This document shows, piece after piece, positions 6,301 through 37,928 of a stretch of 64,000 bases of DNA (positions are counted from its first letter, which is position 1; every line of letters starts with the position of its first letter). The notes under the pieces were generated by a model, which did not search any database, was not told the origin of the DNA, and saw nothing but the letters and a program-made list of their open reading frames with translations. The position numbers and the translations under genes are program-made. The stretch is from Bilabrum cf. latius (taxonomy: Eukaryota), in the NCBI GenBank assembly GCA_965178125.1, contig OZ237750.1, forward strand, positions 558,001 to 622,000, written 5' to 3'.

Positions 6301-6924
6301 GGTCCGGAAGCGGTTGCGAGCGGCTGCGGTGTTTTCCATCTCGCCGGACTGGTCGCAGCCGATCCAGGCTGCGTTCGACCAGTCACCGGACTGCAGCAGG
6401 CCCACGCGGAACGAAAAAGGCTGGGACCAGTCGCTCATGGTTCCGTCGCTCTGGCGCACGCGAGCACGGAAGGCAGCGTCAGTGTCCGCCGGAAGCGGCG
6501 TGGCATCGAGATTGCCGCGCAGCGTGGATTGGAGTGACGGACTTAGAGCTGATGAGGGGTATGCAATGGCAATAGTGGAATTGCTTTCCACCTCACCACT
6601 GTCCCAGAATAGGCCAGATCCCGACGGTAACGAGCTCGCGGGTCCGACTTGCACTTGGTACGACTTCACCGTCTGCCCCACGGCGACATTTGGGAGGAAC
6701 GTGAAGCGAGGAGACGGAGTGTCAATGGTTGCGTACTCGCTCGAATCCAAATACCTGCGCGCAATGTGCAAAGAATGATTGAGGACCAAGATTATTTTAT
6801 TGTGCGATCTTGTGACTACGCGCAGGAACCTGCGGGGGACTCACTCCACAGAAAGCTCTGTTGGTACAGAGGCAAGGCACGAATAAACTGATAAAGCGGC
6901 TACTATGGATGCGAGGCCTCGCAT
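3370..6924 (-). CDS. Secreted alpha-L-rhamnosidase (GH78)
   Basis: Exons 6924-6845, 6754-5038, 4922-4903 and 4780-3370. Signal peptide MRGLASIVAALSVYSCLA. Motifs DFGQNIAG, HGFRY, DCPQRDE|RKGWMGD, ATTMWELW, MNSRAHHMF and C-terminal VFEVGPGGKFSF-TGA. In-frame TAG at 5884, 5095 and 3637. Confidence 0.9.
4830..4847. repeat. G18 homopolymer (C18 on the sense strand) in a GH78 intron
   Basis: Read directly; lies within intron 4781-4902. Confidence 0.95.
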
Positions 6925-18851: not shown

Positions 18852-20148
18852 ATGAGGAGTTTCGGAGCAGTTGTACTTGCACTCGTAGCTGGATATGTTT
18901 CTGTAAGATATAATGTGATTCGTTCGTGCCGAATGGAGGGCAATTTTGTCCTGGAAATATCCGCAGGGAGACGATTGTGAAACTTGCCTTCGATCCACGT
19001 GTTCAACCGCAGGCTGATCTAGTCGAGCTGACTTCTAGCACGTTCGACGACTTCGTCGGAGGCGATAAGGGTGCATTTGTCAAGTTCTATGCGCCGTGGT
19101 GGTGAGATGTTTCACGTTTCTCTCGCGCCACTGCTGTCATCGTGAATCTCGAGCAGGTGCGGGGTTGCCCTCGGATCCAACACCCGATATTCGAAACTAG
19201 TGTATGTGTTTTTTGTTTCGCAGCGGCCACTGCAAGGCGATGGCTCCTGCTATGGAGGACGTGGGCAAGGCGTTCAAGTCGAGCGATCCCGTGGTGGTCG
19301 CTAAGCTTGACGCCACAGCGCACGGCGATGTCGCCGCCAAGTTCGATGTGAAGGGCTACCCCACAATCAAGTGGTTCCCAGCCGGCTCCACAGAAGGAGA
19401 AGATTACAACGGTGGCCGCGATGCCGCGGACATCGTCGAGTTCATCAATGACAAGGCCGGCACCCGCCGCCGCATAGCCCAGGAGCCCACCGCCGTGCAG
19501 CACCTGACCGAGTCGTCCTTCAAGACGGTGGTGGACAGCCGATCCAAGACCCAGCACGCCCTTGTGGAGTTCTACGCCCCCTGGTGCGGCCACTGCAAGA
19601 GCCTCAAGCCGACGTACGAGAAGCTCGCCCAGGCGTTCCAGGGCGAGGACGACGTGATCGTCGCCGCGGTCGACGCGACAGCCCACCGCTCCCTGGGCGA
19701 CAAGTACGACGTGAAGGGCTTCCCCACGATCAAGTTCTTCCGGGCGGGGGCAGAGGAACCCGAGGACTATAGCGGGGGCAGGAGCCTTGATGACTTTGTG
19801 GAGTTTTTGAACAAGGAGGCCGGCACAAGCCGCGGCTCGGACGGGTCTCTCTCAGTGGATTACGGGCGCCTGCCCGACTTTGACGAGTTCGCGACCCTGT
19901 TTGTGGCCTCTGACGACCACGACGACGTCATCAAGCGGGCGGAGGAGGCCGCCGCAGAGTTGGAGGGCAAGGCTGCGACCTTCGCTGGGCATTACGTGAA
20001 GACGATGAAGAAGATCTTGGCCAAGGGGGGCGAGTACGTGGACAAGGAGATCGCCAGGCTGAGCAAGCTGATCGAGGGGGGCAGCGTGAAGCCCGCCAGG
20101 AGAGACTTGTTCGTGCTGCGGAAGAACATCCTGGCCGCCTTCCAGTGA
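18852..20148 (+). CDS. Protein disulfide isomerase, a-a'-ERp29 type (ERp38-like)
   Basis: Exons 18852-18902, 19013-19101 and 19224-20148. Signal peptide, two FYAPWCGHCK thioredoxin motifs (the first split by an intron) and an ERp29-like C-terminus ending RKNILAAFQ-TGA. Confidence 0.95.
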
Positions 20149-20403: not shown

Positions 20404-20947
20404 TCACTTGGCCTGGGGGTGGGTGGACACGAAGGCAACGGCGTCCTCCACAGTCTTGATGGACTCGGCCTCGGCATCGGGGATCTGGATGCAGAACTCC
20501 TCTTCCAAAGCCATGCAGACCTCGACGGCATCCAGCGAATCCAGGCCCAGGTCCTTCTCAAAGTGAGCACCAGCAGCAACCTTGGCGTCCTCCACCTTCT
20601 CGAAGTTCTTCAAGACCTGCATCACTCGCTCCGAAACCTCTGCCTTCTCCAGGAAGGTCTGCGAGGCGAAACATGTGCCGGATTGATCATACAACGTCAG
20701 CAGGTGGGCTCGACGGGGGCGCACGCATGGAATCATTGATAATACGCAAAGCCCCAGCATGTGCGTAGTACAAAGCAAAGCAAACAAACGATTCGACGGC
20801 AGCCGCAGGGACTCTATCGGACTACAAGGGACTTGAGCTTACCTGCACGGTGGCACACAAGGACCGCGTAGGCATGCGGACAGCGAACCTAGTGGGCGCT
20901 CGGAAGCTCCGGGCAGCAGCAAGCATAACACGACGAGCCATGGCCAT
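20404..20947 (-). CDS. NDUFAB1: Mitochondrial acyl carrier protein
   Basis: Exons 20947-20843 (Arg/Ala-rich presequence) and 20658-20404. DLGLDSLDAVEVCMALEEEF phosphopantetheine site; ends TGA. Confidence 0.93.
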
Positions 20948-21128
20948 GATGAACCTTTGTACGCGCTCTTCAGCTGGTTAGACAGATGCACAGAAGAAGC
21001 TCCGATTTCGTGTGCACTTAATCAGAATTCTCTTACAAACGCACGCAACTAGAATGAAACTCTGTTTGATCGGAGCCAGACACCCGTTGGGATGCCTCAC
21101 GGCCCCCGAGGCATTTAGCCGCGAAAGG

Positions 21129-23079
21129 ATGTCGTCTTCTATGCGCGATTTTAAAGTAATCCAGCTTCTTGGTAAAGGAAGTTTTGGATCAGTCTACAAG
21201 TGCAAGCGTATCTCTGATGGACTGCTGTAAGGCATTGCAAGCCATGCTCAATGACGAGGCGGCTTGGGTCCGTTCCTCGCGCGAGATTCTGACGGTCTTT
21301 TTTTGTACGACGTATTTAAATTCGCAGTTATGCCGTTAAAGAAGTGAATATTAAGAAGCTGAGCGCGCGTGAACGGTAAGACAAGTGGTATTCGTAGCTA
21401 CATCGGTATTTCGTGGCTGCAGAGCGTTTCAGCAAGCGACCGGCGGCACGTGAATTGTAGTCAGCATAACGTATCGCGCAGCGAGGACGCCGTTAACGAG
21501 ATCCGGATCCTTGCATCCATCTCCCACGTGAACATCATCCGGTACTGCGATGCATTCCTGGAGCGGGACAATCTGTACATTGTCATGGCGTTTGCCGAGC
21601 ACGGCGACGTCTACAGGCAGATCAAGAAATTCAAGGCGGCCAACAAGTACATCAAAGAGGACACCATTTGGAGCTATTTGATCCAGATGTGTGCTGCCCT
21701 GCGAGACCTGCACTCGAGGCGCATCCTCCACAGGGTGAGTAGCCGATGCCCCTCTCCTGCCCCCCACGCCCCACGCCACTCGCCCGATCCCGCCAGTGAA
21801 GTTCGACGTCCGCTGCCCCCATAACTCCTGCAGGACATCAAGCCGAAGAACGTATTCCTCACGGCCAAGAACCACATCAGGGTGGGCGACCTCGGGTGTG
21901 CCAAGCTCATGAAGAGCGGGCTTGCAAGGACCCAGGTGAGATGGATTGACACGATGGAACCGAGACTTAACGCCTTTGTTTCATTGCTTTGCTAACATGC
22001 ATCCTTCACCTGTCACACCATGCCATGTAATAGTATTTGTCCCTCCGCCCGCTGATGCCCCCAAATCACAATTACAGATCGGCACTCCCTACTACATGTC
22101 CCCCGAGCTGTGGACGTGCTCCCCATACGACGACAAGAGCGACATGTGGGCCGTCGGGTGCTTCATCTTTGAGCTGTGCATGCTCAACCCGCCCTTCGTG
22201 GCCAACGATATGAACGGGCTGGCACGCAAGGTCAAGACCCAGGCCACCCCGAGGGTCAGCAAGCACTACTCGGCGGAGCTCCAGGACATCGTATACGCCC
22301 TCCTCCAGAAGTCTCCCCGCCTGCGACCCTCCTGCGAGGACATTCTCCGCAATCCCTCCGTACAGCGGCGCATGCAGCTGGCACCCATGATCAACGAGAG
22401 GACGGACCGAACCGCCCACATGCTGGCCACCATCAAGGTCCCCAGAGATATGCGAAGAGTGGGACGCATGCAGCTGCCGCAGCCTTCGTATCCAGACCTC
22501 AAGGCAGCCGCTGCCGCGGAGGATGCCGCGCTCGCCAGGGTTGGAGCAGGCGCAGGCGCAGGTGCGGGAGCAGCAGCAGCAGCTGCAGCTGGTGGTGCCG
22601 CCCCTTCGGTAGGCAGGCGGGCCACGAGCCCCCTAGTTTCACCGGGGAAGAAGAAGGCAGCCGCGGCGGCCATGGCCTCAAAGGCAATCCCTGGCAAGGC
22701 CGTGCGGCCTCCGTCTTCCGCTGCCGGGGTTGGGATGAGGCGAGTGGCGTCTGACGGGGACTATGGACGTAGGGGTGGGCGGCCGGCCTCCAGGGCCAGG
22801 GGGGGCGGCGCACGGCCGCCGTCGGCGTACGGGCGTGCCCCCTCGAGGCAGAGGGGGGGCGCTAGGGGTGCGGCTGTCCCCTCCGTGGGGGCCTATTCGA
22901 AGGCCGTGCCCAGCTCGAGGGGCGTGGCGGGGCACATGCAGCGGATCTACGCGGCGGCGGCCGCCGGGGGTGCCGGCGCTGGCGGCTTGGCGTACGGAGC
23001 CGGGGCTCGCCGTGCGGCCTCACGGGCGCCTTCGGCCTATCAGCGGTACGCAGGGAGGGCAGGGTCCAGGTTTTACTGA
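21129..23079 (+). CDS. NIMA-related (NEK) Ser/Thr kinase
   Basis: Exons approx. 21129-21226, 21328-21375, 21482-21734, 21834-21935 and 22078-23079. Motifs LGKGSFG, YAVKEV, HRDIKPKN, GDLG, TQIGTPYYMSPE and LATIKVPR; ends TGA. Confidence 0.93.
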
Positions 23080-23288
23080 GGAGTCCGCCCGGGGCACCAC
23101 CGGCAAGTCAACCGGGTGGTAGGTTTTTGGCTTGCTGGCCGGGGACCCATCGAGGCATGGTGAGTAGTTAGGTGCAGTTGGCTAAAGGGCGCCATTAATG
23201 TGAAAGTGGGGAGGAGTAGAGATAGTACGTTCATCAAGTTCTGTTCACGTCTTTGGTTCGAATCAACGGGCAAAGCTCGACCGTCACG

Positions 23289-23734
23289 TCACTTCGCCTC
23301 ACCATCCTTTTTGACTGCCAGCGGGTTAATGCCGCCCTGCAGCCTATATTCTTGGTACCACCGTTCCTTTTCTTCATCCCTTCCAAACGTGGTGAGGCAA
23401 GACTCCATCGCAATGTGCGACTGCCTGCAACTCGAAACGACAAACATGCCAGAATCTTGCCTGCACTTCCAGTACTCCTTAACTTCATGGTCGCATACCT
23501 TGAGACCGAGCTTCATCCATTCACGCTTTAGCAACTGCGGGAACCATGGTGTAATGGATTCAGACTCGAAGGGGGGTCTCTCGCTACGAGAGCGCTGCGA
23601 CATCCAGAAAGTCGAGCTCCACTCACGTCATCAACAGTGCGGGTAAGTCGCTGCAACCTGCCGCGCCTGCCTTCCTCTTTCATCGATAAAGCATCTTTTT
23701 GCAGGCTGGACGAACTGCTGTCCGAGGCTGCCAT
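23289..23734 (-). CDS. Twin CX9C mitochondrial protein (CMC1-like COX assembly factor)
   Basis: Exons 23734-23627 and 23534-23289. CDHEVKEYWKC...FVVSSCRQSHIAMESC; ends TGA. Confidence 0.8.
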
Positions 23735-23874
23735 TGCTCAGTAGTGAAATGAAAGATTTGGAGAATGACTGGTTCGTTGCAGGTTCGTTCCGCTTCGCAG
23801 CAGAACATGGCGGCGCCATTGGCGCGGCGGCACACAACCCCGGCCAAAAGCAGAGATACTGGTGCAAGGAACAA

Positions 23875-26302
23875 TCAATTCGAAACAGTCGCAGTGGGCC
23901 TGTGTCTCAGACCCTCAGCTGCCTTGGATTCGCTCTCCGTCACTCCGTGGATGGGAGCTGAAGGCAGCGCCCTTGAGCTGGCCTGCTTGGGCTTGTCAGC
24001 TGCCGGGGCACCATCCTTCTTGTTGGCAGCCAAGCGAGCCTTCTTGGCGGCAGCAGCCGCAGCGAGCCTCTCCTCCTCTCTCTACTTGGCAGCCCACGCC
24101 GCGCCAGGAAGCACGCCAAGGGCGAACACCACGGAGCCCAGGTGTACCCCGAGCAGCACGCGAGACAGCGTCCCCATGGCGCTGTAGGCAACCGCAATTG
24201 CTCCCAGTGGGCCACCTTCATGCGATGAAAGAGCCTCCACTGCCCTGCTTGCGATGCCCACCACCTCCCCCACGCTGCCAGCCTACTCTTCCCCATGCCC
24301 ATCGCTCGACTCGGAGGCATCACCGCCGCTCGACACCAGAGCCAGGTGGACGGCCACCAGGGCCGCCGAGACGAGGAGGCACCGGATGGCCTCGTACCAC
24401 GCAGCGAACGTTCGTCGGTCAAGCAGAGAACCCACCCCGAACATGCCCGAGATCACGAAGAGTACCAGGGTCACGGTCCGAGCCGGCCCCGACGTCATCG
24501 CGGCCACTTGCTCCGATGCATAGAACGCGCCGGTGATCATGGCAAAGTGCACGGTACAGTGCAGCACCAGGGCCCAGCCAAGCGGGGCCGTCTGCTGCAG
24601 AACTGGGTTGTACCTTGTCCCGAGGGAGGGGACGGGAATGTCCTTCCAAATCTGCTGCTGCTCGTTGCGAGGCTTGCCAGACTCGGCGAAGGTGGAGGCG
24701 TACGAGGGCTTGTCCACGGCACGGCCCGCGGGCGGGACATCCTCGTCCTGCTTGCCATCGGCAGCTTCCTTCTCCGATCGCTCCCATGCCTCACGCACCC
24801 TGGGCGTCTGCTTCACCAGGTACCACCCAACGGAGGCGTACGGCACCACAAGCGCGTCTCTAAAAGAAGGCGCCTCCGCCATGCGCTTGAACATGTCGTA
24901 CCAGTGGTATGACTGCGCGTGCAAGGCCTCGTTGCTGGTCAGGGGCGGGATGAGCCCGTACACGGGAGGCTCTGCCTCCTCCAAGGCACCCGTCCGGCCT
25001 TGCGATTGCATGCCGCTCCGGCTCGCCGATTTCTACGCCCGAGCATCCGCAACCAAGTCAGACGAAAGACCGTCCTAGGTCTCGAACGGTTCCCCCGTCG
25101 CGTCCTCTAGCTTCCGCACCATGCCGGCGTCCTTGGGCGCGGTGTACCCCGCGCCCACTCTCTCCTCGGCAAAGGTACCAAACATGCGGTCCCAGATGAT
25201 GAAGATGCCGCCGTAGTTGCGACCGCCCCCCGCAGCGTACGCAGGGTTCCTGGCATGGTGCACCCTGTGGTGGGAAGGAGTGGACATTACGTATTCGATG
25301 GGCCACCACAGCTTGGGCACGTGCCTCGTGTGCACCCAGTACTGGTACAGCAGGCTAAAGGCTCCGTGCACGGCCTTTACCCTCGGAGGCACCACAAGGG
25401 CCAGGGGGACGTAGAAAAGCACGCTATCGAACGGGGTCATCGTCTACCGCAGGGCGCAGGGCAAGTTGTACTCGTTGCTGGAGTGGTGGACGCTGTGCGA
25501 GTTCCAGAAGAGCCCCATCTCATGCGTGGTCCGGTGGTACGCGTAGTAGAGCAGGTCGGTTCCTAGCAGCGCGATAAAGAACGTCGAGATGGTGTCGGGG
25601 GTATCCACCAGCCGGAAGTTCGTCCAGATGTAGCCGTAGGGGATCGCCATCCAAGCATGCGCAAGGAGAGTGACCATCCGGTTGACAAGCCCGGTCATGA
25701 GGCTGGTCAGAGTGTCGTCGAACCTGTGGTACACCTTGCCCCTCGCGAACCCAAGGAAAATCTCAGCGAGGATGGAGAGCGGGAAGAAAGCGATCCCTTC
25801 CTTCATGAACGGGAGGGCAGTGACGTCCACGACGCCGTTCGCATCCGCGTCGAGCATCTCCTGAAACTTGAGGTCGGGCTTTGTTAGCGTGGTGATCGGG
25901 AACGCAATCTTCCAGAAGAGCGTCCCATCCGGCGGCAGGGGCACGCCAGCAATGGAAAGCATGCTCAGCACGACGAACGATAGCCCGGCTGCGATGTTAT
26001 AGAAAGTATGTACGGCCCTGTAGTGCTATTTTTGTTCCAGGTCGCGGACCGGCCCTTGGATTCGCCGGAGCAGTCAGAGGCACTCTCGCAGGATTCAAGC
26101 CGTTAAAACCATTTCTCGACAGGCATGCTACCGTAGATTGAGCCATATACTAGAATTATACTAAGACACCTACCGGCAAGATGCCGCAACAAGAACACAG
26201 CATGCAGAATCAAGCAGTCCCTACCAAATACGTCTCACCTGCATACGAAAGAGAAACCGCAAAGAATACCCACGCAAGGGCCTTCACTGCGGTACTCGCC
26301 AT
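23875..26302 (-). CDS. AGMO: Alkylglycerol monooxygenase (fatty acid hydroxylase superfamily)
   Basis: Exons 26302-26239 and 25988-23875. His boxes YYAYHRTTHE, HSVHHSSNEYNL..ALR*, YQYWVHT and TPSHHRVHH, plus NYGGIFIIWDRMFGTF and PVYGL. TAG at 25444, 25075, ~25033, 24283 and 24082; ends TGA. Confidence 0.9.
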
Positions 26303-26482
26303 ATTTTTCAGAATTGTCGTAGAAACAAAACTGCAAGCACTGGGTATGCCCGGGCTTTGCGTTAGTTGCCTTTCGCACCGTTTTTACGTAATACTGCAAA
26401 ATGATACGTTACATTGAGCTTCCGGCTCGTTGGGTCCCGAATGCTTAATATCTTCTGCCTCAGAACCTGCAGCGACTTCTGA

Positions 26483-28180
26483 ATGGAGCCACGAAAATTG
26501 TTTACGGAGAGAAAGCCACGGCGCTCGACACATTTGTTCACACCCGGAACTGCGGTCCCTAGGTCCAGTCGCAAATCGACCAGCAAGCCAGACTCAAAGA
26601 AGTTTGCATTTCTCGCTGAGCAGCTGGGTGAATACAGAAGTAAGAAGGTTCATTGCCTACGTTGATGGTTTAAGATATAGTGGACTCGATAAATCACGTA
26701 AATGCCGGATCTCCGACATGCTCTGTCCGTATCGCCTTGCATACATGCAGGTACAATCCGCTAGTTGCGACGTGAGCTAGATCAGGCAAAACTTTGCAAG
26801 GTGACTAGCGGACAAAATGATACCCCGTCATATCCTGATGAGATCGATGAGCTCAAGAAGGAGCTCTAGAGGGAGCGGCAGGCACGACTGGAGGCGGAGA
26901 AACAGGTCGCGCGGCAGCTAGGGTAGCAAGTAGCGGAGTATGCCGCCCGCGAGGCGTTGTATCAGAATAGATAGGCTCAAAGACTGGACAGTTTGTACGA
27001 GAAGAAGGTCTGCGTAACCTCCCGAGAATACTACGAAATGGTGGAGAAAGCGCTGCACCGAAAAGCTGCAATACGCGCGGCGGAGCGAGCAAGGAAGCAA
27101 GAGGTAGCCAAACAGCAACGCAGGCTGAGTGCAGATATGATACAAGGGCTCAACACACCGGATGGAGCCGCTGGAGCCGGGTAGAACGAGTTCAGCACGC
27201 CTTGGCACGGCGACAAGGCCGCGCATCGGGGAGACGTAGCAGCGGCAGGTTGCACGCCGCCAGGGCATCCCGCCCTCAAGGCCACTCCCGATGGCAGTTT
27301 CTCTCAAAGGTCTCAGGCAAAGGGACATCAACTCCGCGTTGAGCCCGAGCCCATGCTATTGTCCAGCCTCGTCGACGTGCGGCCCGCGAGGCACCGCGAC
27401 GGCTCTGGTGGCGCGCATCCGGGGGCTCAGTCGTCCACGCCGATGGCGAGCGGTCCTCCGGCCAAAGCACCCGTTACCCCCGGCGTGTTCTTCCGCGCGC
27501 TCGCCAGGGAGGGCACAGCCGGTGGGGTGGACAGAGCCGCGGTGGCCAAAGCGGTCGCACGGGGGGACAGGGGCGCGGTGGAGGCCATGGCGCTGGAGTC
27601 GATCCCAGGGAACAAAGAGGGGCCTGCGACTGCAGGACGTTCGGTCCAAGAAGCGGCTGCCCGCGAGAAGGGAGCTGCGTACTCGAGGCTGTCAAAGCGG
27701 GTGGCCGACGCGTGCCGTGCACTGGACTACAAGGGCCTAAACGCTGCCTTTGAGGAGGCGGAGCGGGTGTTCGGGCCCGCCAGCGGGGATGGACACGCGT
27801 GGCTGTGCAGGCTGGCGGACGGTGATCTCGTGCTCCGGACCGGGCCCGGTGCGGGGGCGAGCACGGGTAGCGGCGGGAGGAGGAGGGCGGTGCCTGTGCT
27901 GGTGTTTGTTGCAGGGGCCAGTGGAGGAGGGGTTGGTGCGCAGCTGTCCAAGCGGTGCTGCCGGGCGCTTCTTCGCAATCACGCGAACATCAATGCGATG
28001 GATGCACAGGGCCGGACGGCCGTGGATGCCGCCAGGGAGGCAGGGAACACGGGCCTCGTGGCTTACCTCGGCAGCAAAGGTGGCATGGGTGGAGAACAAG
28101 CCAGGGCAGCCACATCCGATGACGTTGCCGCCGCACCGGCAGATAGAGCGTAGACAATGGACTTGGCCACGGACTCGGAG

Positions 28181-28211
<31 letters not shown>

Positions 28212-28975
28212 GGGCGCGGCCCCGCACAACGGATGTAGTCCGCTTAGAGGCGACTGGGCCTGCAAGCAACCGCAGAGGAACCGCACGTATGGACAGTCCG
28301 GTCGCCAAAGCCCCACCCATCGGCCTGATGCCTCCCGCTGTCTCAAGCTATGGGCACGGCTCCGGTAGCAGCCGCCCGGCCCGCGCCCCACGAGGTCGAG
28401 CTTCACCCGCCAGCCCGGGGGCGCTGTTGCTGGCAGGGGAGGGTGCCTCGTAGGCGGGTGCCGGCGCAGTTGTGACTGTCACGCCCTCGTTCAAGACAAA
28501 GAGGGTGGCGTTCGATCTAGCACCGGTACAGGACCCCGCCAAGGGTGTTGCGTCGCCATTCAAACGCGCGACATTGGATAGCAGACTTAGCAGGAGCGTC
28601 CCGAGGAACTCCCGCTCAGGGGCCGGCAGCCCGCTCGTGAGCAGGAGCGGGAACCTCTCTGCTCCCGGCAGCGAGGCAGGCAAGGGCAAGCTGGCCCGGG
28701 CTGTGGGCTCGCTGATGGGCCGCGGGGATGCAGGCTAGGGCTCGCCTGCATCTGGTCGCGGTGCTGGGTCCGGGTTCGGGGGTGCGGTCGGCTCGCCCAT
28801 CGCTGGGGCAGTGGCACAGGCAGGGGCTGGGGCAAGGTCCTCCGGTAAGAGGTTTGGGAGGAAGCGCGTGCCAGGGGTACGCAGCCCGCTGGCCAGGGGC
28901 CAGTCTCGCAGGGTGGCTGGGTTGCGTGGGGGTCGTGGAATGGGAGGGGGCTCGAGTCCAACCATCAGGTTGTGA
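26483..28975 (+). CDS. Coiled-coil plus ankyrin-repeat protein with low-complexity tail
   Basis: One intron ending at 26750 (donor near 26628 or 26641). All fragments share one frame through 8 TAGs. Coiled coil EIDELKKEL*RERQARLEAEKQ; ankyrin LLRNHANINAMDAQGRTAVDAA; (CAG)7 polyQ near 28190; ends TGA. Confidence 0.65.
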
Positions 28976-29115
28976 GTGGTGGAAGTTGCTCCACTGGTAA
29001 CCACAGTATCAAATAGCAAGTGGGTACGCTTCCACTCGTAGCACATGCAGCATGCAGGAAACCCAAAGAGCAAACCGCGGTTTTAAAGCCCCCGCAGTGT
29101 TCCCCCACCCTGTCA

Positions 29116-30858
29116 TCAATGGCCTCCTGCGGGGCCATCTTCCATGGGAGACGAGCCACCGATCTTCCCTGTGCCCTTACTCGCTGTGCCTATATCCGCA
29201 CCTATGCTCAGCTGAGAGCCGCCGGCCACATCTCCGGGAAAGCCCCCACTGCTGGCAGCTGCTGCCGCGTCCTGTCGCCCCACCAGCCTCTCCCAAGCAT
29301 CTCCGTCCAATTCCTCCGCATCCTCCTCCTCGGCCTCATCGGACGGCGAGCCAGACGCCGCCGCCGCACCGCCACCAAGCTCCTCCTCCTCGTCATCGTC
29401 CTCCTCCTCCACACCCACAGCAGACAGAGCGGAGGCACGCAGCCTGGCCAAAGCCGGCGAGGCCCTCCCCCTCGCCTCCCAGCTCTGCTAGCTGGTGCTG
29501 GAATCAGGTCTCCTAATGCCCTTGGGGCCACTGCCCCTGAGCTCGACCACTCGCCTGCCCGGGGAGGGAAGCGATGGCATGCCGGTGCCTGCATGGGCAT
29601 GGGCCTGGGTCTGTGCGTGGGACGGTAAAGAAGAAGATGAAGATGAGCCATGCTCTGCGCTCGGCACGGTGGCTGCAGCAGGCCCCGCGCTGCTGCTCGC
29701 CCCTGAAGCACCTGCCCCTTTGCGAGCATCCCCCCCCCCTACACCCCCGGTACCGGCGGGGACAGTCGGTGGTATGGCGCCCCCCGCGGCCACGAGTCCC
29801 CGGCCAGCCGCGGTAGGGGCGGTTGACCCTTCGTCGGGCAGAAATACATCAGGGCGGTCGTGGACACTAGACTCGCTCAGTGCGAACAGGACGGCCCGCT
29901 TGGCGGGAAACGACACGAACACGTGTGTCTCGCTCCAAGCCGTGCTGCCGGGACGCTGCACCGGGTCATCGCTGTCACTGGCATAATTAACCTTGTAGCA
30001 CTGCACTGCGGGGTGCTTCACTCGGTTGCCGATGCTGAGCACCGAATATATGCTTGACCATGCTTTGCGGAGCAAAGGCAGGTGCTGGCGACCGACTGTG
30101 CTTCGGTGAAATGCTCGCTCCAAGGTGCCATACACTGCCTCAGGTGATCTCTTTTCAAAGGCAGAGACCGGCATTCCACTGCGGGGCAGAGTATAGGGTT
30201 GGTTTCAGGGCTCGTTGCGCAGACGCTCGCAGCGGTGCATTCGACCAAGCACCGCGTCTACCAGCGAATCTTCGAAGTGATGCGTTCACCATCAGGTTCA
30301 CAGCTCACCTAAAGTCGTAAAAGGTGTCAAATGATCTATTCAGAGTGCCTATCAAGATTGCATGCAATTTGGCCTGCACTGCCAGCGAGGCTTGGGCTCG
30401 TCGAAGTTGCTTCGTCGACTTGCCCCCCTTTCCATGCCCGTGCTGCTGGAGCAGCCTAGAGTGCCTCGCACCAATCGCACGCTTCAGATTTCTAGCAGCC
30501 TTATCTGGCTTCACTGCGGTTTCGAACCCGGTGCAAACAACAGCACCAAAGAAACTTGATGGGTGCAGTTAGACGAAAGAAATTGATGCAGTGACTCGGA
30601 TGGTTGCGGCATGCCCATGCCTCAGTACAGCCGGGCGGCTTGATTATTTGATTTGACAACATGAATCGAGACTTATCCACGGCAGTGGCTTGGATTTACA
30701 CCTAGGATCTGCGGCAAGCTCGATTCGTGCAACTGCAACCGCCGCTCACTGGTAAACGCAAATATGATGCCATCAATCGCACTATCGCAACCCGATACCG
30801 TGAGAGCATTGAGCTCTACGCATAAATCAGCAAATGCTGCGACGTCAATGAATTTCAT
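29116..30858 (-). CDS. MAF1: Divergent MAF1 (RNA polymerase III repressor)
   Basis: Exons 30858-30750, 30513-30309 and 30178-29116. MKFID (box A), LIGTLNRSF.TFYDFS (box B), SDDPV...AWSETHVFVSFPAKRAVLF (box C) and an acidic tail reached through TAG at 29488; ends TGA. Confidence 0.7.
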
Positions 30859-30972
30859 GATGTATTGGCGTGGTCATTCCAGCCGCTTTCCGCTTTCCAC
30901 CGCGGAATCGAACCACAACGAACGTTCGATCACGTTCAAACGGCTCCTGAAGATATGCTCCTCATAACAAAG

Positions 30973-32300
30973 ATGCACGATGTGCAAGGGCCATCTGGCC
31001 CTGCAGTGGTCAGTGAGAATATTGGCAGATGCTATCAGTTGGAGCGTAGAGAGATAATCGCCCTTGGACATGGTTTATTGCTCGCCGTAGGTTCTTGCTG
31101 CACCCCGCAGCTCGCAAGCGCGTGTCTAGCATGGCACTAGCAAAGTTTCTGTATTATCATCAGTGGTTTTCCCTGATATTTGCGTTCGTATTCATCCGTA
31201 TTGCGTACTTTAAGGTGAGAGAAGCATGCATACGACGCCATTGTCTGCATGGTTGTCAAATATTGTACACATCCCTACTCCAGATCGGTGCTTTCTCGCA
31301 GTTCTCGGAAGTATCAAATATTCGCAACGCGGTTCGAATCGTTTATCCGATCGTTGTTGCGTTGTGGGTACTTTTGGAGCCGCTTCGGCTGAATCTCGGC
31401 AATCTCGGCAACCTGCAAGAGAGGGTACCGGAGCTGGCAGCTTTCATTTTGCTTTCTTTTGTTCCTCAAACTGCCTTTGCCATCGTGCTGGCTATCCTGG
31501 GGCGTTCTCATAAGCTTCCGATCGAGACGGTCTTGGGTTGGACGCAGGCCGTAGTGACCATCATCGAGCTCGTCCTCGGGTACTGGCAGCTGCGCGCCTG
31601 CATGGCCCAGCAAATGGCCGAGCAGTATCGCCAAACCAACGAGACCAATCCGAGCAACTCGGCAAACGATGCCATCGAGCAGCAGACGATGGCGCTGCGG
31701 CGGGAGCGGCAAGAGGCTGGCATCAGGGAGACGGAGATGGTGAGGGGGTCGGGCATGGAGGGCTTTGGGCACAGTGATGCTTCTTCAAGCTGGAATGCGG
31801 CGGGGTAGGGACTAGGAGCCGGAGAGGGCGCGCGGCGCAGGCGGCAGGGGCAGGGAGCGGGGGCAACTGCCAGTGGTGGGGCGAGCACACGGGCAGGGGC
31901 AGGGGCTAGCAGGGGTGGGGCCGGGTTTGGCGGGCTTGCAGATACCCAGGCGGGGGACGATTCGTGGAGGCTGGAAAGCACAGGGGGGTTGGATGGCGGG
32001 GCTAGCGCCAGGGATGGTGGGGCGGGCCGAGGGCCGGGGTTGGGTGAAAGTAACGTGCCATTTTCTCCTCCTCGTGGTGGCGCAGGCGCAGCCGACGAGC
32101 GTAGTCCGTTCCGAGGCGGCAGCGGAGCCGGGGCAGGCAGGCGCCGAGCAGGATAGAGGGAGCCAACAGTTGGCGATGTGGCCCACGCTGGGGCACGGGG
32201 TTTAGCTTCGCCGTTGTACGGCCCAGTGTCCGGGGAGGGCAGAGCAACTGGAGCGGCACGAGATAGCACTGGAAAGTACGAAGACTGGGGCCCGACATGA
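30973..32300 (+). CDS. Ciliary transition-zone membrane protein, TMEM17/TMEM216 family
   Basis: Likely exons 30973-31012, 31111-31214 and 31284-32300. SSMALAKFLYYH and LEPLRLNLGNLGNLQERVPELAAF; four hydrophobic segments. Gly-rich tail through TAG at 31806 and ~32153; ends TGA. The 5' exon is inferred. Confidence 0.8.
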
Positions 32301-32545
32301 CATGAACAACGACGAAATTGTTGAAAGAGCAAGTATCGTCGGCTATGATTGGAATGGAGGCCCGCTCATGACACAATTTTCTGGCCTTCGCGACCACCAC
32401 CTCAAGATTCGCAGGCATCCAGGATTTGCGACCAACCCGCAATCGTCAGCACACACGAACAGACAAATGTCATTTTCGGTGCCGTACATCGAATTGAACC
32501 GTCACAATCCCAACGAATCTACGATTTGGCGATCTTGGAGTCAGT

Positions 32546-35500
32546 ATGAAAGTATCAGACTCGCGATATGGTGCGGGTTAGTCCGTCAGAGCCCGGGCTC
32601 GCCACGAGACTCTTGGGCCTAGCAGCGGAATATCCAATGCGTAGGGTTCGCGCCAAATTCCGAGACTCCCATTGGATCTCGTTAGTTCATCTGGTCATCC
32701 AAAAGCTGATTCAGGTCGATTAGGTGGAAGCGCCAGGGCAGACAGCCACAGGAGAGGCGTGGGCGGCCACGGAGCGAGCCGTCACGAGCCCGGGGCGAAG
32801 CAGACCGTTGCATCAGCTAGGGCATCTGGTCGAGGCGATGCTGCAAGAACGATACGAATGAAGCTTCCATTGCATTCTCTCGCTGGGGGTGGCGAAGTTG
32901 CGCCACGTCGTGCGGAGCACCGGCTTTACGGTTCGTACCAAATGGGCGGTGCAGCTGATACACGACATCACGACAGGCCACATGGAGCGTTGAATGCGCT
33001 GCCCCACTCGAGAGACCGCGGTGCATTAGACTCGAAGGATACGAGCTCCACCGCTCAATTTTCTGACGCGCGCAGCCGCCGCTCTCCATCTGACTAGTCG
33101 CCGAGGGCAAGGGACCGTTTGGGGCTCAGCCCGCGTGTACCGCTCGGTGGAGTGAAGGCAGGAACTCAAGGCCATTAGGTTCATTCAACGCGAATTGGGT
33201 TGCCGATAAACACCGCCAGATAGGCTCCCTCCACGCGGCAACCGCTGACCGGACTGCGCGGGCCCCGCAGCAGCAGTGGTCGCAAGCACGGCAGCAGGAA
33301 AGCAGCAGCGGGCCAGTCGGGGGAGAAAGGTAGCGGGACCTTTGCAGCTGCTGGGCTAGGCCAGTTCCGGGCATCAAAGGCGGATCCGGGCGGAGGTATG
33401 CCTCGAGCAGCGAACGAGCAGGCGAGCACCGGAGCAGGTGCTCCGGACGAGCACCGCAGCGTGGAGCGCCTCCGCCACGGCCTCGCGGGAATGCCATCCA
33501 CGGCATCGCAGGTGCCTGAATTACCGTCAAAACCGGCGCTTGGCGGTATCGGGAAGGGCGGCGCAGCGTCGGGACAGCCAGTAGGAGGGGCGGGCTCATC
33601 ATCGACTGCTTCGGCTGCTGGTGGTGGCAAGCAGCAGCCGTCGCCGTCGGGGCCCAAGAGCGGGTCGGGGCGGGGCAGCACCGTGGAGCCGAGCCCGAAG
33701 ATGACGCCGGCCATGGTTTTGCGCGGCATGAGCAGCCGACTGTCCGAGTTTGAGCAGAGTGAGATACTGGACTACAAGAGCATCTACTTTGTGGGCAGGG
33801 ACAAAGAGAGGAAGGTGAAAGGGAGCAATCGACGGGGGAACAACGCGGGGTACGACGACGACCGCGCCAACTACAGGACGGTCAAGGGGGACCACATCGG
33901 CTACAGGTTTGAGATCCTGGGGGAGCTAGGCAGCGGGTCCTTCGGCATCGTGATGCAGGCTCTGGACCACAAGACCGGGAGGACAGTCGCCCTCAAGATC
34001 ATTCGGAACAAGAGGAGGTTCCACAGGCAAGCCAAGATCGAGGTAGATCTGCTGAAGCGACTGCGGGATGCAGACGCGAACGACGACGCAGGGATCATAC
34101 ACCTGCACGAGTGGTTTGTGTTCCGTAACCACCTGTGCATCACCTTTCCCATGCTGGGAGGGGACCTGTACGGCTACCTCAAGAAGAGGCGCTTCCGAGG
34201 GCTTCCCATCGCGTCCATTCGTCGCATCGCGGGGCAGGTGTTCAGGTGCCTTGATTTCCTCCACGGGCGGCGGATCGTCCATTGCGACATCAAGCCCGAG
34301 AACCTGCTGCTCTGCGTTCCCAGCCAGGAAGGAGGGGACCAGTACCGTCCTTGCGGCCCCACCAGGGACAGCACGGTGAGCGGTACTGTGCACCGAGGGA
34401 TGAGCCAGGCGCAGGCAGTGGGTCGGGGGCTGGACCACCTCGCCCCCGGCGAGGGCTTCGACGTGCGCATGATCGACTTCGGGTCGTCGTGCTTTGAGGA
34501 CAAGCGCGCCTACACGTACATCCAGTCCAGGTTCTACCGCAGCCCGGAGGTTATCATGCACCTCAAGTACGGCCGCCCCGTGGACGTGTGGTCCACCGGT
34601 GCCATGCTCTCTGAGCTGTTCACTGGCGAGCCTATCTTTCAGGGGGAGGACGAGAAGGACCAGCTGGCTTGCATCATGGAGCTGTGCGGACCACCCTCCG
34701 GGAGCATGATCGAGGAGTCCCCGAGGAAGAAGACCTTCTTTTAGGAGGATGGGACGCCCATCGTGAGACTCAGCTCCAAGGGCAGGGCCAGGGTGCCTTC
34801 GAGCAGGACTATCAACAAGGCCATGCGGAATCCGCCGGACCCAGCCTTCATCGACTTCGTGCACAGGTGCCTGGCCATCGACCCAAAGAAACGGCTGACC
34901 CCAGCGGAAGCCCTTAGGCACCCCTTCCTGACGGCAGACTGGGCTGCCACGAGAGTCCGATCGATCGATGTGGTGCTAAGGTATGACAAGGGTGCGCCAC
35001 AAAGACCGGCAGCTGGCCCCCAGCAAGGAATCAAGGGTGTGCTTGAAGGAGAAGGCGGGTCAGTGGCAGGCAAGCACACAAGCTCCAGCCATTCGAGCGC
35101 CCACGCAGCTGCTCATGCGAACAGTAAAGGCACTAGCACAGCCAGGAAAAAGCAGCCGGCAGGTGGGGCGTCCTCCATCCCCTTCCAGTCGCCTGCTGCC
35201 TCGATCCGATCTCAGGCCAGGCAGGAACAGGGGGCGGCGCAAGCTGGCTCCACGGCTCAATTGATGCAGTCTCCTGCCATGGCCGCTGCCTAGATGGGCA
35301 GGCAGAGGCACCAGATGGCTGAAGCAGGGGCGCGTGCGCAAGGCGGTGCGGGGGTTGGATACACGCACGGGCACTTGGCCCCTCTAGGCTCCGGTGCCGA
35401 TGGCCAGCACGGGCAAGGGCACGTGCACTCTGGCAGCCGAGCAAGCAATGCTTCCGCCGTTAAGCACGATGCCCTTAGGATCAAGCAAGGCGCCCCGGTT

Positions 35501-36757
35501 CCGCCTGACTCCTTCAGCGTCACGCCGAGCAGGCCGTTCGGGAGGCGGCGGCCGGCGGGAGGCCACGCGCAGAGCAGCCTCGTGGCAGTCCCAGACAAGG
35601 CACCCCTCGACAGCGAGGACCACCACCACGGTGCTCACACTACCAGGCATGTGACAGGCCGATCTGACCCTAACGTCACTTCCTCCACAATCGCGGCGCA
35701 GCGAAAGAGGCGCGGCGAGAGGCTGGGTGACCCGGCCGAGCCCAGCTCGTAGTCGGTTGCCGCACCCAGGGACGGGCGTGGCCGGGACGGGCGCAGCGTG
35801 ATCACGATGCCCAACGGGCTGCGTCGCGACTCGAGCGTGTCAGGTGTGACGCGGGGCTCCGTGGTCACGCCCGCCAACGATGACAACCTGAAGCGCGCGC
35901 TGATGCGCCGCGTGCCCACCAAAGACACGATGGTGTCGGACATGTCCGATGACCTCGCCGGGATGGAACCGACGGGTTCCGATCACCAGACGGTAGGCGG
36001 GTCCACCAACGACAGGGGCAATGGTGCAGACAGCCGGGCGGATCGCGCGCTGACGAGCGCCACGGGACTCACACAGCTGCAGGCGCTGGACGAAGGGGCT
36101 GGGGCTTCAAGAAACAAAGGAGCCATCGGGGGCTTTCCGGGTAGGAACGGCAGGCACGGGTCGCAGATAGGGCGTGGGCAACAGAGGCTCGAACAGGGGC
36201 TCAGCCAGGATCAAGGGCAAGGGCAAGGGCAAGGGCAAGGGCAAGGGCAAGGGCAAGGGCAAGGGATGCCAGCGGAGCGACTTGGAGTGGGCACGAGGAG
36301 AAGGGCAGGGAGTGGAGATGCGGCGGCCGCGACGAGTGCCAGCACTATCACTTCCCCCGACACTGGTACAACGATCAAGTCACCCAAGCCTCCAACCAAG
36401 CAGCCATCGGCTGGTTCCTCGCAGCGGCAGGGCAAGCAGAACCCTCGACACCGCAGGATGCGCACAGGCAGCTCATCGCCCTCGAAGGCGTCGCAGAGCC
36501 GCAGCACGATCGAGAGCGGTGGTGCTTCGGTGGCCTCGAGCATGCAGGTGGGTGCGGCTGCTGGTGGGAGTGCCCGTGCTGGCGTGACTACGACAGGGCC
36601 AGGCGGGTCATCATCGTTGAAACGAAGGGACACGAGCCCCGCCATTGCTGCAACGACACGTGGTGCCCTGGTGGGCTAGCTGGGGGCAATGCACGCGGGC
36701 TAGGCGTCCCAGAGCGGGCGGACGATTCCTGTGAGAGTGACAAGAGACGACCATTGA
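32546..36757 (+). CDS. Class 2 DYRK kinase (DYRK2/3/4-like), ~1,400 aa, intronless
   Basis: NAPA/DH box (LSEFEQSEILDY, GYDDDRANY), HCDIKPEN, IDFGSSC and YTYIQSRFYRSPE. Subdomain XI (CLAIDPKKRLTPAEALRHPF) lies past TAG 34742. Ten in-frame TAGs; ends TGA. Confidence 0.88.
36212..36265 (+). repeat. (CAAGGG)n microsatellite encoding (QG)n in the DYRK tail
   Basis: About nine tandem CAAGGG units read directly. Confidence 0.9.
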
Positions 36758-37928
36758 CAACCTCAGAGAGTCGAATCATTTATCAAGTAGCAGTTTTTCA
36801 ACCGATTGTCTAGCCACTATGGTCTTACTTGCAAAGAAGCCGCATCCAAGTTGATAGGTGAGACATGCACATTGTTATACAGACCACGTGATGCAACCAG
36901 TGGTCTCCACTGTGTTAGCCGTTTCGTTGGCAGCGCTACTGGAGTAGTACGCAACGTGAGCACCCACGACCTCCGGAGTCCTGGTGGTCCGTGTGCCATC
37001 CTCGCGGTCTACGTAGCCCTACCATTACGACCGCTCGTTGCTTTGAGATCGTGGCCCCGAGTTCGCTCGATATCGTACGGTACGCCTCGCGGGCGGGCAC
37101 CTTCAGAGCCTGTTGTAGTGCGTGGGCATCGCATCGGATGCGATCTCTGGTGAGGCGTGTCACAGAGACCGCGTCACTTCCTGCAGCTGCAAACACTCGT
37201 TGGAGGACCGTCTGGTTCACGAAGTTGCTGGGGTGAGAGAGAATGAATATATTTGAGTCAAAGCACACACTACTCAACTACAACGACCGCCCCGAGGGAT
37301 AGTAACGCTGGATAGGTCTAAAGGGTCAACAGGCTCACGCCGCAGAGCATGCAAGCTGGGTTACGACTTCGTGTAGGAGCGGCACTGCTTGTAGCATGCT
37401 GACGTGCGTCCTGTCTAAACGTACGATTGCATTCGGATCAACCGCACACACCAACTTGGTACCTGCCGTTTCTACTGCAGCTGCAGCAGGCACTGTGGGC
37501 ACAGCTGGCGTTCCAGCTGCATGCAAATCCAACGCACCGCCAGCTCCACCAGCCTGCCACAGTGCCAACGCTAGCTGCGCAGCTGCCGCTGCCAGCTCTT
37601 CCACCTGACCGTTTGCTCCTGCTACGCCCGTTTCCTGTGCGCTTGATGCTCCCATCTGCTTCTGCAGCCCACACACGATGAGGTTGAAGTTGTGTGTGAA
37701 AGCTGCCTTCTGCGTGGCAGGCAACATGGCGCTCTCCGAAGCCCAGGACTGAGTCTAGGCTTTCATCGGTTCATAGCCTCCTGGATCTCCTGGAGGCCTG
37801 CCCTAGGCAGCGAGATAGAGAGCTCAGGACAGAATGTGACGATACAGTGACGACATTTCACCCAACGGCAGCAGTTCGATTGGCACCCGTAGATTCCAAG
37901 CAGCACGCCGCGTTTGCTGACTCAAACT

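What the first reader, a model, noticed from the sequence alone, without database searches (positions are those of the whole stretch)
25420..25500. TAG occupies the conserved Gln of the AGMO motif HHSSxxYNLxxALRQ
Seen (minus strand): CAC CAC TCC AGC AAC GAG TAC AAC TTG CCC TGC GCC CTG CGG TAG ACG ATG = HHSSNEYNLPCALR*TM. The remaining iron-binding His boxes follow in frame. Known: alkylglycerol monooxygenases carry HHSSE.YNLSTALRQ here. This is the best family-based assignment of TAG to Gln rather than Leu, Glu or Tyr.
Basis: partly seen in the sequence, partly recalled or inferred. Interest (0 to 1): 0.8.

Follow-up and report, generated by a model that had tools for sequence, protein, structure and literature searches.

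The report
TAG read as glutamine in protist
In this GC-rich protist genome the stop codon TAG sits exactly where an ether-lipid enzyme family always has glutamine, one of several signs that the organism reads TAG as glutamine while still stopping at TGA.

Summary
Confirmed and supported. On the minus strand, 25488-25438 reads HHSSNEYNLPCALR-TAG-TM, with the TAG at 25444-25446. The gene is a two-exon alkylglycerol-monooxygenase-like fatty-acid hydroxylase: ATG at 26302, a 250-nt GT-AG intron, TGA at 23875-23877, 725 codons and 5 in-frame TAGs. The TAG column is Gln in 120 of 120 close hits and in 141 of 150 diverse representatives, next to an invariant Arg and between invariant iron-binding His boxes. 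Spliced transcript contigs from two studies carry all five TAGs unchanged. Across the window, 17 frames hold 91 in-frame TAGs and no TAA; 14 end in TGA and 2 in TAA. Close relatives (80-93% identity) have Gln at 4 of 5 alignable TAG sites, and 3 of 4 relatives' truncated gene predictions stop just before a window CAG. Best reading: TAG = Gln, with TGA and TAA as stops (NCBI table 15 pattern). Clathrin suggests a bigyran stramenopile with no close named relative. Eight literature searches found no nuclear code change reported there. No suppressor tRNA or release factor could be examined, because no genome is held.

The parts
25444..25446 (-). In-frame TAG aligned with the near-invariant Gln of the ...ALRQ motif (residue 173 from Met 25962; residue 203 of the full protein)
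   Evidence: sequence and frame; column Q in 120/120 and 141/150
25438..25488 (-). Motif HHSSNEYNLPCALR-TAG-TM: the end of His box 2 plus the conserved YNLxxALRQ segment
   Evidence: column conservation
23875..25988 (-). Exon 2 of the AGMO-like gene, ending in TGA (23875-23877)
   Evidence: Transcript contigs cover 23811-25988 (X5) and 23853-25988 (X7) with 0 differing letters. The 79%-identical relative P0004 ends at the same C-terminal residues
25989..26238 (-). 250-nt intron, GT...AG on the minus strand
   Evidence: Joint 25988->26239 in contigs of X5 and X7, absent from X1 and X8; intron ends printed
26239..26302 (-). Coding part of exon 1 (ATG at 26302-26300), adding 30 hydrophobic N-terminal residues in frame
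25522..25536 (-). His box 1 (HRTTH; H143, H147)
   Evidence: H in 150/150 at both columns; coordinates
25483..25497 (-). His box 2 (HSVHH; H156, H159, H160)
   Evidence: H in 150/150 at all three columns; coordinates
25255..25272 (-). His box 3 (HHRVHH), downstream of the TAG, so it is made only if TAG is translated
   Evidence: H232, H235, H236 in 150/150; coordinates
25075..25077 (-). Second in-frame TAG (X296). Gln in the 93% relative, Asp and Arg in the 79% and 74% relatives
25033..25035 (-). Third in-frame TAG (X310), next to an indel; not informative
24283..24285 (-). Fourth in-frame TAG (X560). The 93% relative's predicted protein stops within one residue of this place
24082..24084 (-). 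Fifth in-frame TAG (X627), in the variable tail; Ala in two relatives
32546..36757 (+). DYRK-like kinase gene with 10 in-frame TAGs, used as an independent test. TAG 34742-34744 is Gln in an 80% relative and TAG 35750-35752 is Gln in an 88% relative
   Evidence: transcript contig X5 covers 32483-36202 with 0 differences

Best explanation
[quoted passage not shown] The TAG at 25444-25446 is an ordinary, minor Gln codon in an expressed, spliced, intact gene for an alkylglycerol-monooxygenase-like di-iron membrane hydroxylase. Shown here: TAG is in frame and widespread, is present in spliced transcripts, aligns with a near-invariant Gln, and alternates with CAG/Gln in close relatives. Inferred, not shown: decoding by a tRNA-Gln with anticodon CUA together with a release factor eRF1 that no longer recognises UAG. 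That is how the published UAG-only codes are thought to work (introduction and discussion of PMC11687900).
For: (1) The column is Gln in 120/120 hits and in 141/150 representatives at 50% clustering. It is flanked by Arg in 150/150 and lies between His boxes that are 150/150. Three of the eight invariant His lie downstream, so stopping at TAG would give a dead enzyme.
(2) Contigs of runs X5 and X7 (two studies) lack five GT-AG introns that the DNA runs X1 and X8 keep. They cover 23811/23853-25988 with 0 differing letters, so all five TAGs are in spliced RNA unedited. X5 also covers eight DYRK TAGs with 0 differences.
(3) Reading TAG through raises the codons in frames of at least 200 from 21,934 to 42,670 and opens a 5,799-codon frame. 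Reading TAA through changes little (24,646, same top frames).
(4) 17 frames (16,668 codons) hold 91 TAG; 14 end in TGA, 2 in TAA, and 1 runs off the window. The 5,794-codon gene has 47 TAG and 0 TAA although it has 79 CAA against 191 CAG, and its frame is the same length whether or not TAA counts as a stop.
(5) Relatives at 80% identity or more: Gln at AGMO X173, AGMO X296, DYRK X733 and DYRK X1069; the fifth site (X310) is beside an indel.
(6) Relatives' predictions P0270, P0271 and P0274 end immediately before window CAG codons, 3 of 4 clean ends.
(7) NCBI table 15 gives one uninterrupted 725-residue product ending at TGA, where the 79% relative also ends.
Against: Only one TAG in the window sits in a strongly conserved column. 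Other aligned TAGs do not point to Gln:
- DYRK X733 lies in a column of S 51, D 39, N 11, E 10, Q 2 of 120.
- Rhamnosidase X462 aligns with I, T and L in three solved homologues.
- AGMO X296 is D and R, and X627 is A and A, in the 79% and 74% relatives.
- In the giant gene's tandem copies one TAG pairs with TTA (Leu).
- One relative's prediction ends before a window GAG.
With HMMER's default weighting the emission at the AGMO column is only Q 0.36 against K 0.09. No tRNA gene lies in the window and no genome is held, so the decoding machinery is unseen. That the relatives' proteins were called under a standard or bacterial code, so that their Gln are real CAA/CAG, is my inference. It rests on their fragmentation and on a start placed where the window has Leu, not on their DNA. 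The library type of X5 and X7 is only guessed by the tool.
Confidence: 0.88

Rival explanations
1. TAG is a sense codon but encodes another amino acid: Leu, Glu, Ser, Lys or Tyr, as in other published UAG or UAR reassignments.
For: Rhamnosidase X462 aligns with I/T/L. A TAG pairs with TTA (Leu) in the tandem copies of the giant gene. One relative's prediction stops before a window GAG. X627 aligns with Ala twice. UAG=Leu, UAG=Ser and UAG=Glu codes exist (discussion of PMC11687900).
Against: At the only strongly conserved site, Leu occurs in 1 of 150 and in 0 of 120, and Glu, Tyr, Ser and Trp never occur. All of the counter-hints are in variable columns, or at a repeat edge where neighbouring codons also differ non-synonymously; TTA and TAG differ at two bases. 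Four of five sites in the closest relatives are Gln, and three of four broken predictions abut CAG, one transition from TAG.
Confidence: 0.06
2. TAG has two meanings: Gln inside genes and stop at some gene ends, as in the context-dependent codes of some ciliates. This is a refinement of the best explanation, not an alternative to it.
For: I defined frames by running through every TAG, so a gene that really ends at TAG would not have been noticed. In the DYRK-like gene two TAGs lie 26 and 18 codons before the TGA, and I cannot tell which codon terminates. Dual-meaning codes are documented (introduction of PMC11687900).
Against: For the AGMO gene the end is TGA: the 79% relative ends at the same residues, and both transcript contigs end (23811, 23853) before the next in-frame stop 65 codons further on. 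No case in the window requires a TAG stop. Highly biased genes (clathrin, PDI) end in TGA.
Confidence: 0.1
3. Standard code: the TAGs are real stops in pseudogenes, or are assembly or sequencing errors, or are removed or edited in the RNA.
For: Under the standard code the gene is cut at residue 203. Contigs cannot exclude editing in a minority of molecules (note).
Against: There are 91 in-frame TAGs but no TGA or TAA across 17 long frames that include conserved genes. Four runs of DNA or RNA agree on the letters, and spliced contigs keep all the TAGs. The protein is 93% identical to a relative over 552 residues, running across the TAG positions. The relatives' genes are broken in the same manner.
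Confidence: 0.01

Closest known systems
UAG-only reassignment to Gln in Iotanema spirale (Fornicata) (PMC5304391, abstract read)
   Same: UAG is translated as Gln while UAA and UGA remain stops. It was inferred from in-frame UAG at conserved Gln positions in transcripts.
   Different: In Iotanema UAA is the primary stop (abstract). Here 14 of 16 complete frames end in TGA and only 2 in TAA. The organism here is aerobic-type (it has an O2-dependent AGMO-like enzyme), has 60% GC, and by clathrin falls with stramenopiles.
UAG to Gln in the ciliates Hartmannula sinica, Trochilia petrani and Protocruzia tuzeti (PMC11687900; abstract, introduction and discussion read)
   Same: The same code pattern (UAG sense, UAA and UGA stops), arising independently several times.
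   Different: For the five UAG-reassigned phyllopharyngean genomes that paper studied, 86.9-98.3% of genes use UAA as stop and UGA is the least used; here the preference is the reverse. This window is not ciliate-like: it has long spliced genes, and its best named clathrin match is a bicosoecid.
UAR (UAA+UAG) to Gln codes: NCBI table 6; many ciliates, Ulvophyceae, Hexamita, Streblomastix, an aphelid (list in the discussion of PMC11687900)
   Same: The same amino acid for UAG, and probably the same route through a tRNA-Gln derivative.
   Different: Here TAA is not used as a sense codon: 0 in-frame TAA against 91 TAG, where a CAA:CAG ratio of 166:533 would predict about 28.
Animal alkylglycerol monooxygenase (AGMO/TMEM195), Pfam FA_hydroxylase + AGMP_C
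   Same: All eight invariant His, the YNLxxALRQ segment, the domain order, and 40-46% identity to named animal AGMOs.
   Different: It is 725 residues, against about 445 for the listed animal AGMOs. It has an inserted linker after the hydroxylase domain and a long C-terminal tail. It has Asn where 110 of 120 homologues have Glu in HHSSE. Its AGMP_C score is below Pfam's cut-off.

Membership tests
Nuclear code with UAG = Gln and UAA/UGA = stop (NCBI table 15 pattern) | In-frame UAG widespread in otherwise intact protein-coding genes | tested here: met
   91 TAG in 17 frames (16,668 codons); 13 of the 17 frames hold at least one. One of the 91 (31047-31049) falls in an intron seen, so about 90.
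Nuclear code with UAG = Gln and UAA/UGA = stop (NCBI table 15 pattern) | UAG falls at conserved Gln positions of homologues | tested here: met
   AGMO column Q in 120/120 and 141/150. Gln at 4 of 5 alignable sites in relatives at 80% identity or more. Only one strongly conserved column was available, and the other columns are variable.
Nuclear code with UAG = Gln and UAA/UGA = stop (NCBI table 15 pattern) | UAA is not a sense codon | tested here: met
   0 in-frame TAA. Reading TAA through hardly lengthens any frame. The 5,794-codon gene has 47 TAG and 0 TAA. This covers the window only, and TAA is rare anyway at 60% GC.
Nuclear code with UAG = Gln and UAA/UGA = stop (NCBI table 15 pattern) | UGA terminates | tested here: met
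   14 of 16 complete frames end in TGA. The AGMO TGA coincides with the C-terminus of the 79% relative and lies 22-64 nt from the ends of the transcript contigs.
Nuclear code with UAG = Gln and UAA/UGA = stop (NCBI table 15 pattern) | The codons are present in mature mRNA (not spliced out, not edited) | tested here: met
   Spliced contigs of X5 and X7 cover all five AGMO TAGs, and X5 covers eight DYRK TAGs, with 0 differing letters. Contigs cannot exclude minority editing.
Nuclear code with UAG = Gln and UAA/UGA = stop (NCBI table 15 pattern) | Cognate suppressor tRNA (anticodon CUA) with Gln identity | not testable with these tools
   No tRNA gene in the window, no Rfam match, and no genome held.
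Nuclear code with UAG = Gln and UAA/UGA = stop (NCBI table 15 pattern) | eRF1 altered so that it no longer reads UAG; peptide-level proof | not testable with these tools
   eRF1 is not in the window, and there are no proteomic data.
Alkylglycerol monooxygenase (AGMO/TMEM195) | FA_hydroxylase domain above Pfam's cut-off | tested here: met
   PF04116, E 5.3e-25, 88.8 bits against a cut-off of 31, residues 129-263.
Alkylglycerol monooxygenase (AGMO/TMEM195) | Eight conserved His in three boxes | tested here: met
   H143, H147, H156, H159, H160, H232, H235 and H236 are present, and each is H in 150/150.
Alkylglycerol monooxygenase (AGMO/TMEM195) | AGMO C-terminal domain (PF24858) | tested here: inconclusive
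   E 7.2e-05, 23.2 bits, below the cut-off of 28.3. The 93% relative P0003 carries PF24858 in the precomputed list.
Alkylglycerol monooxygenase (AGMO/TMEM195) | Closest named homologues are AGMOs | tested here: met
   Named hits at 40-46% identity are a Cafeteria roenbergensis fatty-acid-hydroxylase-domain protein and then many animal AGMOs. The only NCBIfam match is OlsE, far below its cut-off (45.9 against 475 bits).
Alkylglycerol monooxygenase (AGMO/TMEM195) | Tetrahydrobiopterin-dependent cleavage of alkylglycerols | not testable with these tools
   Needs an enzyme assay.

The most novel reading that the evidence does not exclude
This is the first nuclear genetic-code change in stramenopiles. 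A deep-branching, GC-rich bigyran lineage has reassigned UAG alone to glutamine while using UGA as its main stop, and several sampled relatives (68-98% protein identity) likewise carry genes that standard-code callers break at Gln positions. That is the opposite stop-codon preference to Iotanema and the phyllopharyngean ciliates, the UAG-only cases whose stop-codon usage I read about. It arose without the AT pressure usually invoked for capture of stop codons.
Probability: 0.45. Interest if true: 0.75.

Novelty: new member of a known kind. Interest (0 to 1): 0.62.

Why it matters
Changes to the nuclear genetic code are rare. Cases where UAG and UAA have different meanings are rarer still, and they bear on whether the two codons are mechanistically coupled. 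A GC-rich lineage that stops mainly at UGA, outside ciliates and metamonads, would be an independent case with a different stop-codon economy. It would be useful for testing the codon-capture and ambiguous-intermediate models.

There is also a practical cost. Standard-code gene callers cut these genes: the relative's AGMO is recorded as 557 residues, against 695 from the same internal Met in the window (725 for the full protein), and its DYRK kinase appears as separate fragments. Public protein sets for this lineage are therefore systematically truncated until table 15 is applied.

Tried and rejected
- No whole genome is held, the window has no tRNA gene and no Rfam match. The suppressor tRNA could not be sought.
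- The look-up of sequencing runs lists no holder on record as RNA. The library types of X5 and X7 are the tool's guesses; I call them RNA-derived only because their contigs lack GT-AG introns.
- Run X8, a relative about 92% identical in DNA, covers the TAG site (24734-26104). The table of differing letters was cut (1,209 rows not shown), so its codon there is unknown.
- The metagenome scan for the 81% DYRK relative's contig returned only generic kinases of at most 37% identity.
- For the first gene (570-3095, two TAGs in a helical-repeat core), the genome-contig scan, PDB and NCBIfam found nothing, so those two TAG columns stay untested. Pfam also found nothing for it.
- Rhamnosidase X462 lies in a variable column (I/T/L in three solved homologues), so it is not informative.
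- Profile emissions under HMMER's default weighting are flattened (Q 0.36). I keep that as a conservative figure beside the raw counts.
- The giant 5,794-residue protein is not a conserved family and was no use for codon assignment.
- Earlier notes of this scan hold nothing on this genome or on look-alike sequence. Two notes on TAG recoding in a phage and in a bacterial mobile element do not bear on a eukaryote.
- Rejected readings: pseudogene or sequencing error, the TAG removed by splicing, and RNA editing (see the rival explanations).
- Literature: eight searches found no nuclear stop-codon reassignment reported in stramenopiles. Subscription journals and supplements were not searchable, so a published description cannot be excluded.
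Full report
THE OBSERVATION. The TAG is at 25446-25444 and the motif HHSSNEYNLPCALR-TAG-TM spans 25488-25438. With TAG read through, the frame stays open from 25962 to a TGA at 23875-23877: 695 codons with five in-frame TAGs.

THE GENE.
- Pfam finds a fatty-acid hydroxylase domain at residues 129-263 (E 5.3e-25, 88.8 bits against a cut-off of 31). It also finds a weak match to the alkylglycerol monooxygenase C-terminal domain (23.2 bits, below the cut-off of 28.3).
- Of 2,582 word-index hits, the named ones among the best 120 are a Cafeteria roenbergensis fatty-acid-hydroxylase-domain protein (45% identity) and many animal alkylglycerol monooxygenases at 40-46%.
- All eight invariant histidines are present: H143, H147, H156, H159, H160, H232, H235 and H236, each H in 150 of 150 representatives.
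- Five of these lie before the TAG and three after it. A product that ended at the TAG would lack the third iron-binding box.

THE COLUMN. I translated the codon as X so that no residue was presupposed.
- In a MAFFT alignment with the 120 listed hits, the column is Q in 120 of 120.
- In a second alignment with the 150 best representatives of an exhaustive HMMER search of a library clustered at 50% identity (8,784 hits at E up to 0.001), it is Q in 141 of 150. The nine others are H 3, K 2, and F, R, T, L one each. Five proteins are in both sets.
- The preceding Arg is 150 of 150.
- Leu appears once; Glu, Tyr, Ser and Trp never appear.
- With HMMER's default entropy weighting the match-state emission is flattened to Q 0.36 against K 0.09. 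Gln is still first, both here and in the sum with the second column I could model.

TRANSCRIPT EVIDENCE. I laid four runs on 22000-41000.
- X1 matches the window exactly and looks like the source DNA.
- X8 is a relative about 92% identical in DNA.
- X5 and X7, from two different studies, hold contigs that skip five stretches with GT..AG ends on the coding strand: 23535-23626, 25989-26238, 30179-30308, 30514-30749 and 31013-31110. Neither X1 nor X8 skips any of them. I therefore take X5 and X7 as RNA-derived, although the tool only guesses their library type.
- Their AGMO contigs cover 23811-25988 (X5) and 23853-25988 plus 26239-26352 (X7) with 0 differing letters. All five TAGs are thus in the spliced transcript unchanged.
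- The splice also reveals the true start. An ATG at 26302 opens a 64-nt coding exon that joins in frame and adds 30 hydrophobic residues. The full protein has 725 residues and the TAG is residue 203.
- A contig of X5 also covers 32483-36202 with 0 differences, which includes eight TAGs of the neighbouring kinase gene.

THE WINDOW AS A WHOLE. It is eukaryotic, at 56-65% GC. It holds clathrin heavy chain, an ERp29-type protein disulfide isomerase, a DYRK-like kinase, a Kelch protein, a TMEM17-like protein, a dihydrouridine synthase, a GH78 rhamnosidase and a 5,794-codon gene.
- Reading TAG through nearly doubles the codons in long frames (21,934 to 42,670) and opens the 5,799-codon frame. Reading TAA through changes little (24,646, same longest frames).
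- In 17 frames chosen by length and codon bias (16,668 codons) there are 91 in-frame TAGs. Fourteen frames end in TGA, two in TAA, and one runs off the window.
- One of the 91 TAGs (31047-31049) lies in an intron seen. Some frames are exons rather than whole genes, so the counts are approximate.
- The giant gene gives a test of TAA that is not circular. Its frame is the same length whether or not TAA counts as a stop, and it holds 47 TAG and 0 TAA, although CAA is 79 against CAG 191.
- If TAG is Gln, it makes up 91 of 790 Gln codons (11.5%).
- TAG is absent from the two genes with the strongest codon bias: clathrin (GC3 0.94) and the disulfide isomerase (GC3 0.86).

WHICH AMINO ACID: EVIDENCE FROM RELATIVES.
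- The three closest AGMO orthologues (P0003 at 93%, and P0004 and P0005 at 79% and 74% over the catalytic region) all have Gln at the motif site.
- P0003 comes from a 57,410-nt contig that also holds two fragments of the kinase orthologue, P0274 (98% identity) and P0270 (88%). So the neighbourhood is syntenic, and the relative's kinase gene is broken.
- Counting every TAG site that aligns in a relative of at least 80% identity gives five sites. AGMO X173, AGMO X296, DYRK X733 and DYRK X1069 are all Gln. AGMO X310 lies next to an indel and is aligned to Ala.
- In the reverse direction, four relatives' predicted proteins align cleanly up to their last residue. Three of them (P0270, P0271, P0274) stop immediately before a CAG codon of the window. 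The fourth (P0005) stops before a GAG in a poorly aligned tail.
- P0003 stops within one residue of window X560.
- I infer that these predictions were made under a code in which TAG is a stop. The grounds are that they are fragmented and that P0003 starts at a codon where the window has Leu. On that inference their Gln residues are true CAA or CAG, and their breaks are TAGs. I could not see their DNA.

EVIDENCE THAT DOES NOT POINT TO GLN.
- DYRK X733 lies in a variable polar column: S 51, D 39, N 11, E 10, Q 2 of 120.
- Rhamnosidase X462, beside the DCPQRDE motif, aligns with I, T and L in the only three solved homologues.
- In the 79% and 74% AGMO relatives, X296 is D and R, and X627 is A and A.
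- In the two 2,442-nt tandem copies of the giant gene, one TAG is shared and one pairs with TTA (Leu). That is a two-base difference at the diverging edge of the repeat, where neighbouring codons also differ non-synonymously.
None of these sites is conserved, so they weigh little against an invariant column. They are the reason I put Gln at about 0.9 and not higher.

MECHANISM.
- Shown: TAG is translated (or the enzyme would lack a His box), it is in the mRNA, and TGA ends the same mRNA. The 79% relative ends at the same residues, and both transcript contigs end before the next in-frame stop.
- Inferred from published UAG-only codes: a tRNA with anticodon CUA reads UAG but not UAA, which lets UAG change meaning alone, and eRF1 must stop recognising UAG (introduction and discussion of PMC11687900).
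- Neither component is in the window and no genome is held.
- A dual stop/sense role for TAG cannot be excluded, because my frames were defined by reading through every TAG.

WHO IT IS.
- The clathrin heavy chain has no match above 56% identity. The best named match is Bicosoecida sp. CB-2014 at 53%, followed by oomycetes, an ochrophyte and Aurantiochytrium at 46-47%.
- I built a FastTree of 44 rows: 18 named and 25 unnamed rows picked from the 120 listed hits, plus the window. The window falls on a long branch (0.52) inside a 19-row clade with support 100. That clade's only named member is the bicosoecid, and it sits beside the clade holding Aurantiochytrium.
- The best named AGMO hit is also a bicosoecid.
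- This is one gene and a fast method. I take 'bigyran stramenopile without a close named relative' as likely, not settled.

COMPARISON WITH WHAT IS KNOWN.
- UAG alone reassigned to Gln is reported for Iotanema spirale (abstract of PMC5304391). It is also reported for the ciliates Hartmannula sinica, Trochilia petrani and Protocruzia tuzeti (abstract and discussion of PMC11687900).
- UAA is the primary stop in Iotanema. In the five UAG-reassigned phyllopharyngean genomes of PMC11687900, 86.9-98.3% of genes stop at UAA and UGA is the least used. Here TGA dominates, 14 frames against 2.
- The pattern equals NCBI table 15, which translates the spliced gene into one 725-residue product.
- Eight full-text searches found no nuclear stop-codon reassignment in stramenopiles; the hits concern mitochondrial codes (passage check).
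- The library lacks most subscription journals and supplements were closed. The DNA is held in runs dated 2019, 2024 and 2025 from five studies. A description in print is therefore possible.

VERDICT. It is a new member of a known kind of code variant, probably in a lineage where none has been reported. The finding itself is the single best site in this window for making the assignment. The decisive evidence still to come is the tRNA, eRF1, a genome-wide inference and peptides.

Noticed in passing
window 41226-58610 (+): A 5,794-codon open frame with 47 in-frame TAGs and no Pfam-recognisable core. It ends in a cysteine-rich stretch and several hydrophobic segments. It contains a near-exact tandem duplication with 2,442-nt spacing (copy-1 residues 2928-3726; 26 of 799 codons differ).
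   Followed up: partly
window 13286-18004 (-) and 19204-20148 (+): Clathrin heavy chain (GC3 0.94) and an ERp29-type disulfide isomerase (GC3 0.86) contain no TAG at all and almost no CAA (1 of 74 and 0 of 6 Gln codons). TAG behaves like a non-preferred Gln codon that is avoided in strongly biased genes.
   Followed up: partly
window 25474-25476 (-), residue N163: This enzyme and its three closest relatives have Asn in HHSSN, where 110 of 120 homologues have Glu (HHSSE). The only three Asn in that column are those three relatives.
   Followed up: partly
window 3370-6438 (-): A bacterial-type GH78 alpha-L-rhamnosidase is split over two frames (6438-4993 and 4707-3370). The first frame leaves homology right after DCPQRDE, as if an intron begins there. 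Each piece has in-frame TAGs.
   Followed up: no
window 37216-37849 and 39118-39751: Summed contig depth is 15-20 times that of the neighbouring sequence in both DNA-type runs (about 213-248 against about 13), with many variant letters and rearranged joints. This is probably a dispersed multi-copy repeat.
   Followed up: no
window 31013-31110 (+): A 98-nt GT-AG intron seen in the X5 and X7 contigs removes the start I had assumed for the TMEM17-like frame (31029), together with its first TAG (31047-31049). The real start of that gene lies upstream.
   Followed up: partly
window 20673-21227 and 21997-23079 (+): The N-terminal glycine loop and the C-terminal lobe of a protein kinase lie in separate frames about 770 nt apart. 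This is presumably one gene with introns, or with a missing middle exon.
   Followed up: no
window 59429-62314 (-) and 6982-8301 (-): These are the only two frames ending in TAA (a Kelch-repeat protein and a HAD-type hydrolase). In both, a TGA follows in frame within 16 and 47 codons. Whether TAA truly terminates was not tested.
   Followed up: no
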